Shown here: positions 2,680-59,542 of the stretch, piece by piece | How the letters are laid out: every line of letters begins with the position of its first letter | How positions within the stretch are numbered: position 1 is the first letter of the stretch | DNA from: Eledone cirrhosa | Lineage: Eukaryota | DNA length: 64,000 nt | Assembly (NCBI GenBank): GCA_964016885.1 | Contig: OZ024744.1 | Span: 67,270,001-67,334,000 of the forward strand | Direction of reading: 5' to 3' | Program-made: the position numbers and the translations under genes | Notes under the pieces: generated by a model | Seen by the model: only the letters and a program-made list of their open reading frames with translations | Told to the model about the DNA's origin: nothing | Databases searched by the model: none

Positions 2680-3072
2680 AAAAGAAATTCAAACACTCAT
2701 ATATGAAAAAAACAACCTGTGACAACCCCCCCCCCTTCTTATTTGAAGAACTATTGTAAAGCGAATTGGCGCGAAATTTATTATAATTATTGACAAACCA
2801 ATCAAATTACTTCTCGAAAAACCTGGCATTTCGAGCCACTTTTTCCATATAAAACAAGTAACATTCAGAGACCAACCAGATGTGAGAAAAACCACAGACC
2901 CTCCATCTCAACTCACCTTTTAAAAAGCAGAAGAACTGCGAAACCGGTAAAGGAACCAAATAAATATATATGTTTTTTTTTTAAATAAGACTCCAGTTGC
3001 ATTTTCGATTTCATCTCTTTTTCTTTATACTTTCACTCGTGTAGGACACCGGTTATTTTTCAATTTGTAAAA
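2680..3072 (+). repeat. Unclassified ~390-bp interspersed repeat
   Basis: Reverse-complement copy at ~4325-4735 and a partial copy at ~58595-58800. Confidence 0.7.
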
Positions 3073-5261: not shown

Positions 5262-6002
5262 CAAGATTCTTTATCTGAAAACGTGTGTTGAAACCGATAT
5301 TGTTATACTTTGGAAGAGTCATATTGCCAATAAGAAACACACGCACCAGTTGCTTTCACTTCAATTTATTATAAATTAAATTTATAAATTTAAGAATTTA
5401 TAAATTTCCGGTTGATTGGTTGGTTCCACAACCAGATGATTGTTCATATATTGTCAAAGTTCTTTCGTCACGCATTCTGTGACCTCTTCAGTGACTGGGG
5501 ATTCTTTTCTTTGTTTTTGTGCCTCTCCTTTGTTCTGTCCTACGCCATCTTGTTTTTTGTGTGTTTTGTGTGCTTAGTTTGCGCATGTGTTACATCCGGG
5601 TGTCTGTGTGTGTTTATATTTGTTTATTTATTTGTTTATTTGCATGTTACTGGTTGCTTGTTTGTTCTATGTGTGTGTGTGTTTTCATTTTGTCCTTAAT
5701 TGTAAGTTGTGATGTTGCTGTTCCATTCATGTTTTCTATTCAATTTTGGTTGGAGTTCATTTATGTTTATTGCCTCTGTGATTTGTCTAAACATTGCGTC
5801 TTTTCTGTGTGTAGATTCTATTTTTATTTCTATGTTCTCTAATTTACCCTTATGTTCTATTTTAGCATGTTGGTGGAGTACTGATGACTCTTTTCTATCT
5901 TGAAGCTCTCGCCAGTGTGCATTTATCCGTTCTCCTATACTACGAGCTGTCTCACCTATGTACACTATATTCTTATCTCTACATTGTCCTTCAGTACATC
6001 TT
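5262..6002 (-). mobile_element. Penelope-like element 3' fragment (GIY-YIG C-terminus + 3' UTR/pLTR)
   Basis: 5696-6002 translates CTEGQCRDKNIVYIGETARSIGERINAHW..SVLHQH..RQITEAININELQPKLN. Homologous copy at 51960-52585. Confidence 0.85.
5453..5495 (-). ncRNA. Minimal type I hammerhead ribozyme in PLE 3' region (family C)
   Basis: Reverse complement: gtca CTGAAGA g gtcac agaatgc gtgac GAAA gaac TT tgac. Confidence 0.7.
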
Positions 6003-6012
6003 ATATATATAT

Positions 6013-6153
6013 AACGAAGGAAGTGTGGTAAGGAACCAGGTGGACCATAACGCACCAGAGTACTCGATACTTTGATAAGTAGAGTAGGTAATAGGAAAAG
6101 AGTCAGGACCCCGACGGCAGAGCTCGAGCCGTTTCGACGGCTATTTCTGGACT
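6013..6153 (-). repeat. Solo terminal fragment of the family G PLE pLTR
   Basis: Matches 39952-40090. Further copies at 25060-25275, 32384-32590 and 39200-39330. Confidence 0.8.
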
Positions 6154-6878
6154 GGTATTCCGATGATTTGATCAGAGACACACACTGTATTTAAGGTCGA
6201 GCGACACAATTTCGAGTGATTATCGGCTTTGAGGCTCATTTGATCAATGAAACAATTGTTAATACTGTAAATAAAACCCTTTTTGTACAGCCGACCATCT
6301 TATTCTTCACTCTTTCACTACTATTACTCCAAGAATGATCTGCATGGGAATTCTCGCAAACTTCCCACCTAACTAAGGAAACCTCTTGTTGAGTCAAACA
6401 ACGCCGTACGTTAAAACTATCCATCGTACAGTGTACTCACAACCGCTCACTGTATTACCTAAAACGATAACTTGTTATCCCAATTATATATATATTTATA
6501 AACCGAAATCTTAGTGATTTCCAGAAGTTAACTGAGCAGATGTTTTTCCCTTATTTTTTTCTCCATTGTCTTTGTTATGTGCAACCCCCACCCCCATTTT
6601 GAATATATATATATTTCTTAATTGTACTTTGTCGTTTACTTTCTTACATCTGTTTACTTTTTACACACACTCAGACACGCATAATATAATTCTTTAGCAC
6701 AAGCCCAACAATTTGAAGGAAGAGGGAAATTGACTGCATTAACACCAGTATTTAACTGGTACTTTATTTTAAAGACCCAGAAGGTGAAAAGAAAAGTTGA
6801 CGTTGGCAGAATTTGATCTCAGAAAGTAAAAGACGGAAGAAAGAACACTTAAGCTGAAACACGTGTGTGTGTGTATGT

Positions 6879-16174: not shown

Positions 16175-16860
16175 ACCGATCATTTCTACGCATTTTTCCA
16201 CAGCAAAATCAACATTAGTGACTGGGTATAAGGACACTACATCCATGCTACCTATTGTACAGCCTGTTAGGTCCCTAGACATGTTGTATTCGCGAGGTCC
16301 TTCGTGCTGTCACATATGTCTGGGGACATTTCAATTACGGGGTGTATGAGCAGGGAGAGGAAGTAGGAGAGCCTGTAGCTGCTAGCAATGTTAGCTCTAC
16401 AAACTGACCGTGTAAGTGGTCCTTTGCCTGAGTCACTATTTGCCGTGTAGTCTTGCGAAGCCCATGCATCGTTGGTACGTCTGTTCCAGGTCTGGAAGTT
16501 GTTGGTAATCCGTTCATTAGGTTGCATTATGCTAGTCCAAATCATCATATGAGCGTTTAGGGTTTTCTCCCTTTCCTCATGCTTTTGTGGTGTTACCTCT
16601 CTTGTGTTGTTGATGTAGTTTGGCAGGCTGTCAACTGACAATCTGCCAGACTTGTCTGTTGAAAAGCATACAATCTCTCCATTTCGTGAGTGCTGAATGA
16701 GCTTACATAAGAGCATGAAGAATATATACATCGGGTGATATGTTGGTGTAATGGTAGCACAGTGGTCTGGATAACCAAAGATGTGGGTTCGACTCCCATG
16801 TACATCAATACTCAACTTTTCCATTTCTTTGAGGTTTCTATTGAGGTTTCTAAGCCCCAC
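16175..16860 (-). pseudogene. Penelope-like reverse transcriptase remnant
   Basis: STDKSGRLSVD, PLTRSVC..SYRLSYFLSLLIHPV and GSMDVVSLYP (PLE RT S.DV.SLY motif); abuts a family C pLTR-end fragment at 16070-16175. Confidence 0.7.
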
Positions 16861-21806: not shown

Positions 21807-22138
21807 GAAATATCCACGGTTAGTTGTGGGGTCTAGTCTGCATGAAGAACTCAATGTATTCCATATGTTGAAAATGTTGTAGGTTAAAATAAATCCCGGA
21901 AAACGATAAAACATCAAAAGGAAAACAGAGTCATGATATAAGTTAAAACAATGAAATAAAAATTCAAGTCATTAGAAATATACTTCACTGCTTTACGATC
22001 GATTCTAGGTGATAATAATACATCGTACGCATATTTCGTTATCGATCTATGTAGGGTTAGTTACAAAATCTCAAATAAGGAATATATTTACCTACATGCC
22101 AGAAACAACAGAGGACACCACACCCGAGGCATTAACAC

Positions 22139-22606
22139 GTGCTTCCTGAAGCTCCCACAACAGCCATCCGCAGAGCTATCAGACGAGAGGGACTAGATAT
22201 CCAGCTAGCCCTCTCAGGATGTTCTCTACGCGGACAGCTAACAAAAAGACACTCCACCAAACATGACAGCCGTTGCAGCCTAGCCAACTGCCTCATCAAC
22301 GACACAGACCTATGCTACCAAGCTTACGTCGTATACAGATTAGAGTGCGACAAATGCAGCAATTTCTACATAGGTAGCACCACCAGACCACTTCACATTA
22401 GAATAAAAGAACAGCCCAACACTAACGCTTCCTCATTTAAGAAACACCTAATGAAATGCAAAAACACCGACAAAAACATAATAGTTAGGATAGAAGCTAA
22501 GGAAAAAAACCTCGGCAATCTTAGAATTAAAGAAGCACTAATTATAGACAAAACACGACCACCAATCAATAACAGACTAGAATTCAACACACAATGTTTA
22601 ACATGA
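22139..22606 (+). mobile_element. Penelope-like element GIY-YIG endonuclease fragment
   Basis: CSLANCLINDTDLCYQAYVVYRLECDKCSNFYIGSTTRPLHIRIKE..LRIKEALIIDKTRPPINNR. Confidence 0.85.
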
Positions 22607-45599: not shown

Positions 45600-47769
45600 T
45601 CTTAAGGGGCAAGCCAAAAAACTAACCAACTGGAAATCACCAGGCCCAGATGGTGTGCAGGGGTATTGGATTAAACATTTAACATCCCTCCACCCGAAGC
45701 TGACGGGCATGTTCAATGACTGCTTGGTGTCGGGTGAGGTGCCAGAGTGGTTGACAAAAGGTACCACAGTTCTGATAATGAAAGACCGAATCAAGGGTAA
45801 TGATGTTACCAACTATAGACCTATCACATGTCTGCCCGTAATGTGGAAACTGTTGACGAGCATTGTGTCTGAGGAAATCTACCATCACCTCCACACAAAC
45901 AACTTGTTACCGGACGAACAGAAAGGATGCCGAAAGAAGTCACGTGGTACAAAGGACCAGTTGCTTATTGATAAGATGGTAATGGGGAATTGCAGGAGGA
46001 GACACACTGATCTTGCCATGGGATGGATAGACTACAGAAAGGCATTTGACATGGTGCCTCATTCCTGGATCACCAAAAGCCTGGAGATCTTCAGGGTGGC
46101 AGATAACATCAGACAGTTGCTGGGCAGGAGTATGGGGTCCTGGGAGACAGAGTTGACATCAACTGGAGTATCCTTGGGAAGCGTGAAGATCAAGAGAGGT
46201 ATCTTCCAGGGAGATAGCCTGTCCCCTCTGTTGTTTGTCCTTGCCCTGATGCCCTTGACCATTATGCTGCGAAAAGTGAGAGCAGGATACAAGTTGGGAA
46301 GGGGAGAGCTTACCATCAATCACCTCCTCTTCATGGACGATCTTAAGCTCTTCGGGAAAAGTGAGAAGGAGTTGGATGTGCTTGTTGACACTGTCCGTAT
46401 TTTCAGCAGTGATATATGTATGCAGTTTGGTATTGGTAAATGTGGAGTCATTGTGATGAAGAGGGGTAGGTTGAGCAGAAGTAACGGGATCCAGATACCA
46501 ACAGGTGAGATGATAAAGGAAATTGACTCTGAGGAAGGATACAAATATTTGGGCGTTCTGGAGGCTGATGGCATAAAGAACAAAAAAATGAAGGAATTGT
46601 TAAGAACTGAATACATTCGGAGAGTAAGGAGCGTATTGAAGTCACATCTGAACAGCAGAAATGCCATAAGCGCAGTAAATTCCCGAGCTGTGTCTATTAT
46701 TAGGTACAGTGCGGGAATTCTGAGATGGAATGTTGCTGAACAAAAAGAAATGGATAGGAAGACTAGGAAGCTATTGACTATCTACAACATGTTCCACAAG
46801 AGGAGTGATGTCGATAGACTCTACCTAAGGAGATCTGAGGGTGGAAGAGGTCTTATCAGCATAGAGGACTGTGTTCAGATGGAGAAAAACAACCTATACA
46901 AATACGTGACCTATAGTAAGGAGCCAATGCTCAGAACTGTACTGAAGGAGGGGACAGTAGGCCAGGGGATGTCCAAGGAGGAAATAACATCAAGGAGGAA
47001 GAGCAGCCTTAAGGGAAAATCCCTTCATAGTACCTTCTTTGAGAAAACTCAATTTAGAGATCCACAGACATGGAACTGGTTGAGAAGAGGAGACCTCAAA
47101 AAGGCTACAGAAGGAATGCTAATGGTTGCGCAGGAGCAGGCCCTCAAAACGAAGTGGTTGAAGCACCATATCTACAAGGAGGAGGCTAGCCCACTGTGCA
47201 GGATCTGTGGAGAGAGAGAGGAGACTGTGGCTCACATTGTGTCCGAGTGTAAACACCTAGCCCAGACCCACTATAAGGGCTGGAGACACGATGTGATGGG
47301 CAGGGTGATCCACTGGCACCTGTGCAAAGTAAACAATCTACCACATTCTGAGAAATGGTATGAGCATAGGCCAGAGGCGGTGATGGAGAACAGTCAGGTG
47401 AAGGTGCTGTGGGATTTTAGGATACAGACGGACAAAAAACTGGAACACAATAGACCTGACCTGGTGGTTGTGGACAAAGAAAAAAGATCGTGCCTGATTG
47501 TGGATGTGGCCTGCCCGTTCGACACGAGAGTGCAAGAGAAGGAGAGGGAGAAAATTAACCGATACCAGGACCTAAAGTGGGAGGTGAAAAGGATTTGGAA
47601 CTGCCATGAAGTCAAAGTGATCCCGATTGTCATAGGCGCACTGGGGACTATCTCCAAAGGTTTCCAGGGATGGTTAAAGAAAATCGGCCCCTTCACGCTT
47701 TTTGGAACGCTTCAAAAGGCATGCTTGCTTGGAACAGCAAGAACCCTCCGATACGTCCTGAATATCTGA
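45599..47769 (+). CDS. R4/Dong-like non-LTR ORF (RT + CCHC finger + PD-(D/E)xK restriction-like endonuclease), 5'-truncated but uninterrupted
   Basis: WKSPGPDGV, NYRPITCL, IDYRKAFDMVPH, GIFQGDSLSP, LFMDD, CRICGEREETVAHIVSEC, RHD, RPDLVVVD..IVDVACP; flanked by (TAA)n; element ends at ~47843. Confidence 0.92.
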
Positions 47770-55332: not shown

Positions 55333-55761
55333 CATATATGTATATATAAATATGTGTGTGTGTGTATATATATATATGTGTGTGTGTGTGTACGTATGTA
55401 CGTATGGATATATATATATTAAAAATACATATATGTGTATATATCTACACACACACATATAAATATATACATATACGCACACATATATATATATTTATAT
55501 ATAAGTGTATATATATATATATATAAGTATGCATGTATACGTACATACATATATGTATACAGACGTACAGTAGCATGCACATATATATATATATATACAT
55601 ATATATATACATATGCATACAGGTACACATACATATATGCACGTATCAGTTTAGCGGCGCTAACGTCGCTTTGTTCGTTTGTAAACAAACTGAACAGCCT
55701 GAATTTATGCCATACGGTGTTAAGGCAACCACGTCACCTTTTTGTTCAACACTGACACAGG

Positions 55762-55806
55762 AACGATGTACTAGTTTCAAGCTTGTTAGCTATCATCAGC
55801 ACCGTT
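55762..55806 (-). ncRNA. Minimal type I hammerhead (family J), inverted copy
   Basis: Reverse complement of 56319-56363. Confidence 0.8.
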
Positions 55807-56318
55807 TACCCATCTGCCAGATAGTTGAACGTTCGAAAGTATATACTTTCCTTATGAAAATTAACGGCTGAGCAGCCTAATTTGCATATTGAGTGAGTTA
55901 AATCGGTCAGGCATACCGAAAACGATAAATTGAAACAAAATGAAAACGAAATTTCATTTCTCACTCTTAGTATGGCACTTACGAACAAAGCGACGTTAGC
56001 GCCGCTAAACTGATACGTGCATATATGTATGTGTACCTGTATGCATATGTATATATATATGTATATATATATATATATGTGCATGCTACTGTACGTCTGT
56101 ATACATATATGTATGTACGTATACATGCATACTTACATTTAAGTAAGTGCCATACTAAGAGTGAGAAATGAAATTTCGTTTTCATTTTGTTTCAATTTAT
56201 CGTTTTCGGTATGCCTGACCGATTTAACTCACTCAATATGCAAATTAGGCTGCTCAGCCGTTAATTTTCATAAGGAAAGTATATACTTTCGAACGTTCAA
56301 CTATCTGGCAGATGGGTA

Positions 56319-56363
56319 AACGGTGCTGATGATAGCTAACAAGCTTGAAACTAGTACATCGTT
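56319..56363 (+). ncRNA. Minimal type I hammerhead (family J)
   Basis: aacggtg CTGATGA t agct aaca agct t GAAA ctag TA catcgtt. Confidence 0.8.
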
Positions 56364-56784
56364 CCTGTGTCAGTGTTGAACAAAAAGGTGACGTGGTTGC
56401 CTTAACACCGTATGGCATAAATTCAGGCTGTTCAGTTTGTTTACAAACGAACAAAGCGACGTTAGCGCCGCTAAACTGATACGTGCATATATGTATGTGT
56501 ACCTGTATGCATATGTATATATATATGTATATATATATATATATGTGCATGCTACTGTACGTCTGTATACATATATGTATGTACGTATACATGCATACTT
56601 ACATTTAAGTAAGTGCCATACTAAGAGTGAGAAATGAAATTTCGTTTTCATTTTGTTTCAATTTATCGTTTTCGGTATGCCTGACCGATTTAACTCACTC
56701 AATATGCAAATTAGGCTGCTCAGCCGTTAATTTTCATAAGGAAAGTATATACTTTCGAACGTTCAACTATCTGGCAGATGGGTA

Positions 56785-56829
56785 AACGGTGCTGATGATA
56801 GCTAACAAGCTTGAAACTAGTACATCGTT
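56785..56829 (+). ncRNA. Minimal type I hammerhead (family J)
   Basis: Identical to 56319-56363, 466 bp downstream. Confidence 0.8.
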
Positions 56830-57125
56830 CCTGTGTCAGTGTTGAACAAAAAGGTGACGTGGTTGCCTTAACACCGTATGGCATAAATTCAGGCTGTTCA
56901 GTTTGTTTACAAACGAACAAAGCGACGTTAGCGCCGCTAAACTGATACGTGCATATATGTATGTGTACCTGTATGCATATGTATATATATATGTATATAT
57001 ATATATATATGTGCATGCTACTGTACGTCTGTATACATATATGTATGTACGTATACATGCATACTTACATTTAAGTAAGTGCCATACTAAGAGTGAGAAA
57101 TGAAATTTCGTTTTCATTTTGTTTC

Positions 57126-57193
<68 letters not shown>

Positions 57194-57460: not shown

Positions 57461-57537
<77 letters not shown>

Positions 57538-57716
57538 GGATATGTGTTCCTACACGCACAAAGCGCTAAGGGACACATGTATTGTCCAACCATATGCCAA
57601 TGTGGTTCAATGGCAGGTTAATAAATTAACGAGCCAGAACATATATAATCAGGTTTAGCAAATAATGAAAAAGTTTCAAAATAAATTTTAAAAAATTGAC
57701 TTTACGTACTATAGTT

Positions 57717-57800
57717 ACCTTTACCGAATCGGTTTCGAATCTCAAAAATAAACGGAGACCATACGGCCTTCGTTGCAAAGAAAGATTCTCGTCAGAAGGT
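57717..57800 (-). ncRNA. Type I hammerhead ribozyme (family K), inverted copy
   Basis: Reverse complement of the 58356-58439 fold. Confidence 0.85.
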
Positions 57801-58355
57801 TCTTTTCATTCGAAGAATATAAAATTCTTGAATATAATTACGAACTAGCGCTATCCAAAACTGTTCCCGAGATGAGAGTAAATAAAGTGGAATCAATTTT
57901 TTCAAGGGCCGAAAGTAAAGATAGAGGCAGAGGGAGGTAGGTCAAACGGCCACCACTATCACTAGCAGCAGTCGTAACTATAGTAAGTAAAGTCAATTTT
58001 TTAAAATTTATTTTGAAACTTTTTCATTATTTGCTAAACGTGATTATATATGTTCTGGCTCGTTAATTTATTAACCTGCCATTGAACCACATTGGCATAT
58101 GGTTGGACAATACATGTGTCCCTTAGCGCTTTGTGCGTGTAGGAACACATATCCTATTATTACTATTCTCCTCTATGTTGAGAAAAAATTTGGTCGTTCC
58201 GACTGCTGCTTGACCTACCTCCCTCTGCCTCTATCTTTACTTTCGGCCCTGGAAAAAATTGATTCCACTTCATTTACTCTCATCTCGGGAACAGTTTTGG
58301 ATAGCGCTAGTTCGTAATTTAAATTCAAGAATTTTATATTCTTCGAATGAAAAGA

Positions 58356-58439
58356 ACCTTCTGACGAGAATCTTTCTTTGCAATGAAGGCCGTATGGTCT
58401 CCGTTTATTTTTGAGATTCGAAACCGATTCGGTAAAGGT
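58356..58439 (+). ncRNA. Canonical type I hammerhead ribozyme (family K)
   Basis: acctt CTGACGA gaatct..agattc GAAA ccg att cgg TA aaggt. Confidence 0.88.
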
Positions 58440-58506
58440 AACTATAGTAAGTAAAGTCAATTTTTTAAAATTTATTTTGAAACTTTTTCATTATTTGCTA
58501 AACCTG

Positions 58507-58596
<90 letters not shown>

Positions 58597-58829
58597 TGTG
58601 AGTTTTTTTTTACAAAATTAAAAATAACTGAGGTGTTCTACACGATTGAAAGTATAAAGTAAAAAAGATGAAATCGAAAATGCAACTGGAGTCTTATTTT
58701 AAAAAATATATATATATATTTATTTGTTTCCTTTACCCGTTTCGCAGTTCTTCTGCTTTTCAAAAGTAGAGTTGAGATGGAGGGTCTGTTGTTGTTCTCA
58801 CATCTATCTATATATATATATATATATAT

Positions 58830-59542
58830 AATAAGCTTGAAACTAGTGCAGCGTTCCTTTGTCAGTGTTGAACAAACGAGCAACGATGGTTGCTAGACAC
58901 TACGGCTTAATACGGGATGTTTGTTTACAAACACACCGTGCATTATAATAAATGTTCGGTGAATCCATACGTACATATATATATGTGTGCATGTATGTAT
59001 ATATATATACATACTACTGTACCTCTGTATACATATATGTATGTACGTGTACATACTTATATTTAAGTAACAGCCGTACTAAGAGTGGGAAATGAAATTT
59101 CGTTTTATTTTTTCCGTTTATCCTTTTCGGTGCACCCGGCCGATTAACCCACTCGATATGCAAATTGGGCTACTCAGCCGTTAATATGCATCAGGTAAGT
59201 ATATACGTTCAACAATCTGGCAGGGAAGTATACGTTGCCGACGATAGCTAATAAGCTTGAAACTAGTAGAGCGTTCCTTTGTCAGTGTTGAACAATCGAG
59301 CAACGATGGTTGCTAGACACTACGGCCTAATAGGGGATGTTTGTTTACAAACACACCGAGCATTATAATAAATGTTCGGTGAATCCATACGTACATATAT
59401 ATATGTGTGCATGTATGTATATATATATACATACTACTGTACGTCTGTATACATATATGTATGTACGTGTACATACTTATATTTAAGTAACAGCCGTACT
59501 AAGAGTGGGAAATGAAATTTCGTTTCATTTTTTTCCGTTTAT
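58830..59542 (+). repeat. 420-bp tandem relative of family J with degenerate HHR (CCGACGA core at ~59238)
   Basis: aagcttgaaactagt at 58833 and 59253; octamer retained at 59158. Confidence 0.8.

What the first reader, a model, noticed from the sequence alone, without database searches (positions are those of the whole stretch)
57533..58511. 464-bp HHR element whose direct arm begins at the ribozyme cleavage site
Seen: a canonical HHR (GUA^aaggtaac, cut after 58434) with a ~40-nt loop II containing an extra hairpin. The forward arm starts at gtaac (57974), about 3 nt downstream of the equivalent cut site, and runs slightly more than one unit. An inverted monomer precedes it. Inference: the cDNA ended at the 5' end of a self-cleaved RNA, a genomic footprint of in vivo cleavage followed by retrotransposition.
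Basis: partly seen in the sequence, partly recalled or inferred. Interest (0 to 1): 0.75.

Follow-up and report, generated by a model that had tools for sequence, protein, structure and literature searches.

The report
Retrozyme copies ending at ribozyme cut
This is one copy of a 483-base non-coding repeat with a hammerhead ribozyme fold; its genomic copies end three to four times more often than chance just after the predicted cut site, which likely records self-cut RNA being reverse-transcribed by a Penelope-type transposon enzyme, although most copies read straight through that site.

Summary
The hammerhead is real: type I, predicted cut after 58434, fold backed by compensatory changes in relatives. 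The forward arm starts at +4. Two corrections: the family unit is about 483 bp (464 comes from a private 19-bp deletion), and the inverted arm is 35 nt short of a monomer. The locus belongs to a dispersed non-LTR retrozyme family whose arms end at two fixed points (+81, +190) fused to (TA)n, the same footprint as an intact Penelope-like element in this genome. So breakpoints are not uniform, but 137 of 190 arms read through the cut; cut RNA is at most a minority template (about 10-14% of passages). About 70% chance that this arm belongs to the excess. No RNA data were found; stalling at an intact junction is not excluded. The scan reported this 483-nt family (e1-8811452) and such cut marks (e1-10329974) before on other DNA.

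The parts
57463..57534 (.). (TA)n target tract, left side
57532..57974 (-). Inverted arm, family positions +226 round through the cut to +190 (447 nt); 3' end fused to (TA)n at the second fixed end point
57717..57800 (-). Type I hammerhead of the inverted arm, predicted cut between 57722 and 57721
57946..57964 (-). 19-bp segment normal for the family, kept in the inverted arm and missing from the forward arm
57970..57978 (.). Head-to-head junction of the two arms with short imperfect microhomology; forward arm starts at +4 (to +8) after the cut
57974..58515 (+). Forward arm, +4 through one unit to +81 (542 nt); 3' end fused to (TA)n at the first fixed end point
58052..58160 (+). 109-nt 'tail' between the two fixed 3' end points (+81 and +190), seen here as an internal part of the arm
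58209..58210 (+). Site of the private 19-bp deletion that shortens this unit to 464 bp
58356..58439 (+). Type I hammerhead: stem I 58356-58360/58435-58439, CUGACGA 58361-58367, stem II 58368-58374/58413-58419 with 38-nt loop and inner hairpin, GAAA 58420-58423, palindromic stem III, cut after 58434
58509..58591 (.). (TA)n target tract, right side

Best explanation
This is a young insertion of a non-coding 483-bp hammerhead repeat (non-LTR retrozyme) that was likely copied from RNA by a Penelope-type reverse transcriptase, and its forward arm likely stopped at +4 because the enzyme ran off the 5' end of an RNA that the ribozyme is predicted to have cut. Shown: the hammerhead fold with covariation; two fixed 3' ends (+81, +190) fused to (TA)n; back-to-back arms; a 3-4-fold excess of 5' ends just after the cut and a shortage just before it. 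Inferred: a Penelope endonuclease cuts both strands of a (TA)n tract, each DNA end primes reverse transcription at one of two internal RNA sites 109 nt apart, and the two cDNAs are joined head to head by microhomology. The usual template is uncut across the ribozyme site (circle or multimer), so most arms read through. In about 10-14% of passages the template is cut there, the enzyme runs off, and a few bases are trimmed at joining.
For: 3' ends: of 233 arms in 157 events, 138 end near +81 and 81 near +190, and 218 of these 219 run into TA repeat; 57 of the 134 junction-selected events have one arm of each kind. A young intact Penelope-like element here (784-aa open frame, RVT_1 and GIY-YIG above Pfam cut-offs) has the same layout with two ends 41 nt apart. 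Frangieh et al. 2024 (PMC11167929, parts 1-3 of 4 read) showed in vitro that a Penelope-like protein cuts and extends both strands of AT-rich DNA and starts at two internal RNA sites that bound the tail. 5' ends: 24 of 190 in a 14-nt window at the cut vs 6.9 at flat hazard, P 3e-7; 23 of 188 without this locus; 14 vs 4.2 among inversion junctions alone; 7 of 26 second-lap passages in the +81 class. Length-jitter nulls give 7.0-9.6, 0 of 4000 reaching 24 in each of three. With allele- and microhomology-aware ends: 17.3 vs 5.4 in +1..+10, the top 10-nt window; 40 in +1..+30 vs 9 in -29..0, P 5e-5; best step positions -4..-1; AT-matched background 2.2 vs 9.6 per 1000. The excess appears in both subfamilies, 19 vs 4.7 and 4 vs 1.5, and the 7 long cut-start arms are only slightly closer to each other (0.033) than to other arms (0.039). 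Arms of one insertion are closer to each other (median 0.017) than to other loci (0.037) in 41 pairs, and two loci have nearly identical laps sharing 26-29 non-majority bases, as expected from one template.
Against: 137 of 190 arms cross the cut at least once and 24 twice or more. Only 9 of 190 reach -2..+2; the excess trails to +45 (30 vs 17.7 in +12..+45) over an AT-rich hairpin that could favour joining by itself. With the strictest end-calling the peak is 15.5 vs 5.3, and 78 of 2000 simulations give some window as extreme. The +190 class alone is not significant (5 vs 2.2, P 0.07). The neighbouring 420-bp family shows no significant peak (6 of 92 passages vs 3.7 expected, P 0.17) and the 466-bp family 0 of 25; the contrast between the 483 and 420 families is itself not significant (P 0.15). 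In whole-arm folds hammerhead stem I has probability 0.0-0.19. No A>G editing bias marks an RNA stage. No sequence link to the 50 Penelope loci tested. PMC11167929 found hammerhead cleavage dispensable for insertion in vitro and no RNA-seq ends at the cut in Anolis.
Confidence: 0.6

Rival explanations
1. Same element and enzyme, but the reverse transcriptase stalls on an intact RNA at the folded ribozyme, at a bound protein or at the ligation junction of a circle, so the peak marks an obstacle and not a free 5' end.
For: Most of the excess lies at +4..+12, the 3' edge of stem I; most arms read through; the cut junction has no indel excess.
Against: Stem I is only 5 bp and rarely formed in whole-arm folds; no other 14-nt window in the unit, including those at longer hairpins, comes close (next best P 1e-3, the adjacent +14..+27); four arms begin exactly at +1 and one at +2.
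Confidence: 0.2
2. The excess comes from sequence-driven joining: the AT-rich stretch and hairpin at about +5..+69 anneal easily to (TA)n or to the partner cDNA, and the closeness to the cut is incidental.
For: Three solo arms start at TATAG (+9) with 4-nt TA microhomology; the most AT-rich positions have a higher stop rate, 4.0 vs 2.5 per 1000; both arms start near the cut in 7 of 56 pairs (P 0.10).
Against: The excess holds for inversion junctions alone, 14 vs 4.2; the AT-matched background is 2.2 vs 9.6 per 1000; the density step sits at the cut, not at the hairpin edge.
Confidence: 0.1
3. The RNA 5' end at this position is a transcription start or the edge of a few source loci, not a ribozyme product.
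For: A start site would give the same one-sided profile; no promoter or RNA data were available.
Against: The step coincides with the predicted cut to within a few bases; the cut-start arms span two subfamilies and are not a tight group.
Confidence: 0.07
4. The locus arose at DNA level (satellite rearrangement, fold-back repair or an assembly artefact) with no RNA step.
For: Both arms lie in TA tracts that are prone to rearrangement; no editing scars.
Against: Two fixed 3' ends recur in 219 of 233 arms at dispersed loci, the same layout occurs in an intact RT-encoding element, and contigs of public runs show the +81 end joined to TA repeat.
Confidence: 0.03

Closest known systems
Metazoan non-LTR retrozymes (Cervera and de la Pena 2020, PMC7229834: abstract, passages and Discussion read; Li, Clavereau and Pollet 2026, 10.64898/2026.07.22.740005: parts 1-3 of 5 read)
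   Same: Non-coding, low-GC unit of a few hundred bases with one type I hammerhead per unit, in dispersed and tandem copies; mobilisation by Penelope-like elements proposed in both papers.
   Different: The parts read do not describe two-armed insertions with two fixed ends or a pile-up of 5' ends at the cut. Loop II here is 38 nt with an inner hairpin. Expression and circularisation are untested here.
EN+ Penelope-like elements (Craig et al. 2021, PMC8557442: passages read; Frangieh et al. 2024, PMC11167929: parts 1-3 of 4 read; Cervera and de la Pena 2014, PMC4209133: passages read)
   Same: Inverted 5'-truncated arm, partial tandems, a tail on one arm only, (TA)n targets, type I hammerhead with palindromic helix III.
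   Different: No RT or endonuclease frame; the tail is 109 nt, not 30-40; no sequence match to the two Penelope families sampled; in the Anolis element no RNA ends were seen at the cut and cleavage was not needed in vitro.
R2 retrotransposons with HDV-like ribozyme (Eickbush et al. 2013, PMC3774820: abstract only)
   Same: Self-cleavage sets the RNA 5' end and shapes genomic 5' junctions, which vary through chance microhomology.
   Different: Other ribozyme class, autonomous, rDNA-specific; there the cut is at or just upstream of the element's 5' end, here it stops only a minority of passages.

Membership tests
Metazoan non-LTR retrozyme | Type I hammerhead with intact core in each unit | tested here: met
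   core positions vary less (0.012) than the unit mean (0.039, median 0.017)
Metazoan non-LTR retrozyme | Short tandem unit in multiple genomic copies | tested here: met
   481-484 bp units; arms up to 3.5 units; 200 exact matches of a 35-base core; 2353 first-look candidates, 40 scored. 483 bp is above the 150-450 of PMC7229834 and inside the 51-972 of the 2026 preprint
Metazoan non-LTR retrozyme | Non-coding and GC below 50% | tested here: met
   longest ATG frame 53 aa in a two-unit ruler, GC 36%
Metazoan non-LTR retrozyme | [quoted passage not shown] | tested here: not met
   each arm here has one ribozyme; other family loci meet it
Metazoan non-LTR retrozyme | Self-cleavage in vitro | not testable with these tools
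   needs a bench assay
Metazoan non-LTR retrozyme | Expressed as linear and circular RNA | not testable with these tools
   no RNA holder listed
Metazoan non-LTR retrozyme | No LTR, PBS or PPT; long target-site duplication when present | tested here: inconclusive
   no LTR-type layout in 157 events; PBS and PPT not searched; a duplication cannot be read inside (TA)n
Autonomous Penelope-like element | ORF with RT and GIY-YIG endonuclease | tested here: not met
   no Penelope-type frame joined to the unit in 14 longer stretches around family copies (the frame in L238 belongs to a separate insertion)
Penelope-mobilised element | Two fixed 3' ends (tail), inverted 5'-truncated arm, microsatellite target | tested here: met
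   same layout in the intact element
Penelope-mobilised element | Sequence homology to the pLTR of an autonomous element | tested here: inconclusive
   no match in 50 loci of two Penelope families, drawn from 150 scored of 8581 candidates; other families not sampled

The most novel reading that the evidence does not exclude
Genomic copies of this retrozyme are a quantitative record of its RNA pool in the germ line: about one passage in eight meets a ribozyme-cut end and the rest run round an intact circle, so the share of copies that stop at the cut reads out hammerhead activity in vivo family by family (clear in this family, whose stem III can close in a monomer; weak or absent in the minimal-hammerhead neighbours).
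Probability: 0.3. Interest if true: 0.7.

Novelty: new member of a known kind. Interest (0 to 1): 0.48.

Why it matters
[quoted passage not shown] A one-sided excess of genomic 5' ends at the predicted cut, in insertions that carry the Penelope two-start footprint, links these steps and gives numbers that a primer-extension or 5'-OH capture experiment can test. The element class itself is known and the effect is modest.

Tried and rejected
Rfam does not recognise this hammerhead; the miRNA hits there lie on TA repeats. The first duplicate-merging rule over-merged through shared flanking repeats and was replaced. The first microhomology-aware end caller misplaced subfamily arms; it was redone allele-aware and both results are reported. 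RNA: no RNA holder listed; 4 runs of unknown kind, one study, contigs only; 3 of them laid gave nothing on RNA ends. A>G editing bias, a lead from note e1-8803865: not seen in this family. Autonomous partner by sequence: none joined to the unit in the flanks of copies with non-TA ends and none in 50 Penelope loci. A DNA search with the 466-bp neighbour returned no candidates (that search skips very common words, so this shows nothing). My hammerhead scan found none inside the young intact Penelope element in 4 loci. PMC5850863 is not held, so it was not read. Literature searches listed no paper reporting genomic 5' ends piled at a retrozyme or Penelope hammerhead cut; subscription papers and all supplements were not seen and may bear on this. 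The organism was not determined.

Full report
Observation. The stretch 57532-58515 sits inside a TA microsatellite and consists of two back-to-back arms of one repeat. A descriptor scan of the whole window returned 5 candidate hammerheads; the two with three good stems are the mirror pair in this element, cut after 58434 on the plus strand and after 57722 on the minus strand. The motif has a 5-bp stem I, CUGACGA, a 7-bp stem II with a 38-nt loop holding an inner hairpin, GAAA, a short palindromic stem III and GUA at the cut. Rfam does not score it. The fold is supported by relatives: on 14 hand-picked variants from the loci held, 93% of cells pair and 12 of 25 pairs change on both sides, 6 of 7 in stem II. 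These variants were found with a pairing filter, which favours the structure. Numbering +1 as the first base after the cut, the forward arm starts at +4 and ends at +81 of the next unit; the inverted arm runs from +226 round to +190. The family unit is about 483 bp; this forward arm has lost 19 bp.

Family and sample. The window lies in a 3.0-Gb genome. A DNA search gave 2353 first-look candidates, 40 scored, and a 35-base core matched exactly 200 times. To avoid choosing copies by arm length I searched for the two 3' junctions with TA repeat: 70, 64 and 101 overlapping matches. Nearly all distinct places were fetched; left out were 2 presumed duplicates on one contig, 2 members of one duplicated array and 1 unlisted match. 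233 loci collapsed to 157 events after merging identical places and segmental duplicates. 134 events carry a junction pattern; the 23 found only by ribozyme-spanning queries were set aside for the main test. Arms with another 3' end, with no TA run, or of 25 nt or less were dropped, leaving 190. The sample is limited to copies with intact junctions, so mostly young ones.

Insertion footprint. Of 233 arms, 138 end near +81 and 81 near +190, all but one of these running into TA repeat; 57 of 134 events pair one arm of each kind head to head. Junction overlaps are mostly 0-2 bases. A young intact Penelope-like element in the same genome, with a 784-aa open frame carrying RVT_1 and GIY-YIG, shows the same layout with its two ends 41 nt apart. 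In vitro a Penelope-like protein cuts and extends both strands of AT-rich DNA and starts at two internal RNA sites that bound the tail (PMC11167929, parts 1-3 of 4 read). I infer that Penelope machinery moves this repeat. Which family does so is not shown: no sequence match was found in 50 Penelope loci.

Each arm was treated as a run from its 3' end back to its 5' end, and stops were counted per passage. 24 of 190 arms stop in the 14 positions around the cut against 6.9 at a flat rate (P 3e-7), the best window in the unit; 23 without this locus; 14 vs 4.2 for inversion junctions alone; 7 vs 1.7 for solo arms in TA. Shifting arm lengths at random by up to 60, 120 or 240 nt gives 9.6, 8.5 and 7.0, never 24 in 4000 trials each. 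With ends re-called allowing subfamily alleles and microhomology, +1..+10 holds 17.3 vs 5.4, +1..+30 holds 40 against 9 in -29..0, and the strongest step in the unit lies at -4..-1. The strictest calling gives 15.5 vs 5.3, with 78 of 2000 simulations reaching that level somewhere in the unit. The excess is about 18 of 189 passages in the narrow window and about 30 of 219 out to +45. For this locus the ratio of 3.75 gives about 0.7 that its +4 start belongs to the excess.

Limits. 137 of 190 arms cross the cut, and the crossing is clean: 3 indel events over 10 positions at about 213 passages, below the unit mean. The main template is therefore intact across the site. Arms and laps of one insertion are closer to each other than to other loci, and in L097 and L098 laps differ at 0 of 888 and 1 of 874 sites while sharing 26 and 29 non-majority bases. 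This fits a circle copied round, but also a homogeneous tandem source. Only 9 arms reach -2..+2; the rest of the excess needs trimming at joining, or a stall. In 88 events of the neighbouring 420-bp minimal-hammerhead family (90 loci fetched of 215 matches) 6 of 92 passages stop at the cut vs 3.7 expected, and in 13 loci of the 466-bp family 0 of 25; the contrast with this family is not significant. No editing bias was seen, and no RNA run was listed.

Comparison and verdict. The element meets the sequence criteria for a metazoan non-LTR retrozyme; activity and expression could not be tested. It works like a non-autonomous Penelope element but is not an autonomous one. A ribozyme setting the 5' junction has a precedent in R2 (PMC3774820, abstract). 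Six literature searches listed no report of this pile-up for retrozymes or Penelope elements; subscription papers and supplements were not seen. Earlier notes of this scan describe the same 483-nt family and the same kind of cut marks on other DNA; they were read after the main result and are not counted as support.

Noticed in passing
window 55518-57129: Two-armed insertion of a 466-bp unit with a minimal hammerhead; 2.5 forward units and the inverted arm are 100% identical; arms end at +251 and +307 of its own cut; forward arm starts at +91, not at the cut.
   Followed up: partly
window 58824-59539: Solo 1.7-unit arm of a related 420-bp family; the complete ribozyme copy has CCGACGA in place of CUGANGA; family ends at +217 and +273.
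   Followed up: partly
L237:7251-9150: Chimeric insertion: three 483-bp units joined directly to a unit of the 420-bp family, which suggests a template switch between families.
   Followed up: no
L282:2686-5037 and L279-L298: Young intact Penelope-like family (RT, CxxC linker, C-terminal GIY-YIG) with many near-identical copies, two 3' ends 41 nt apart in (TA)n; no hammerhead found inside it by my scan in 4 loci.
   Followed up: partly
L238:175-3180: Degraded Penelope-like copy of a second family with a hammerhead-like motif near 3010-3056, read by eye.
   Followed up: no
L031:1189-1274: Sister family with the same large loop II design, changed stem I and II sequences and a GUC cut triplet.
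   Followed up: partly
L234-L236: A block containing 483-bp arms has itself been duplicated about ten times in tandem over 22 kb.
   Followed up: no
window 5699-6190, 22136-22603, 45601-47766: GIY-YIG fragments (one above, one below the Pfam cut-off) and a LINE-type RT frame elsewhere in the window.
   Followed up: no
window 16737-16807: Single tRNA-like match above the Rfam gathering score, with several mispairs.
   Followed up: no
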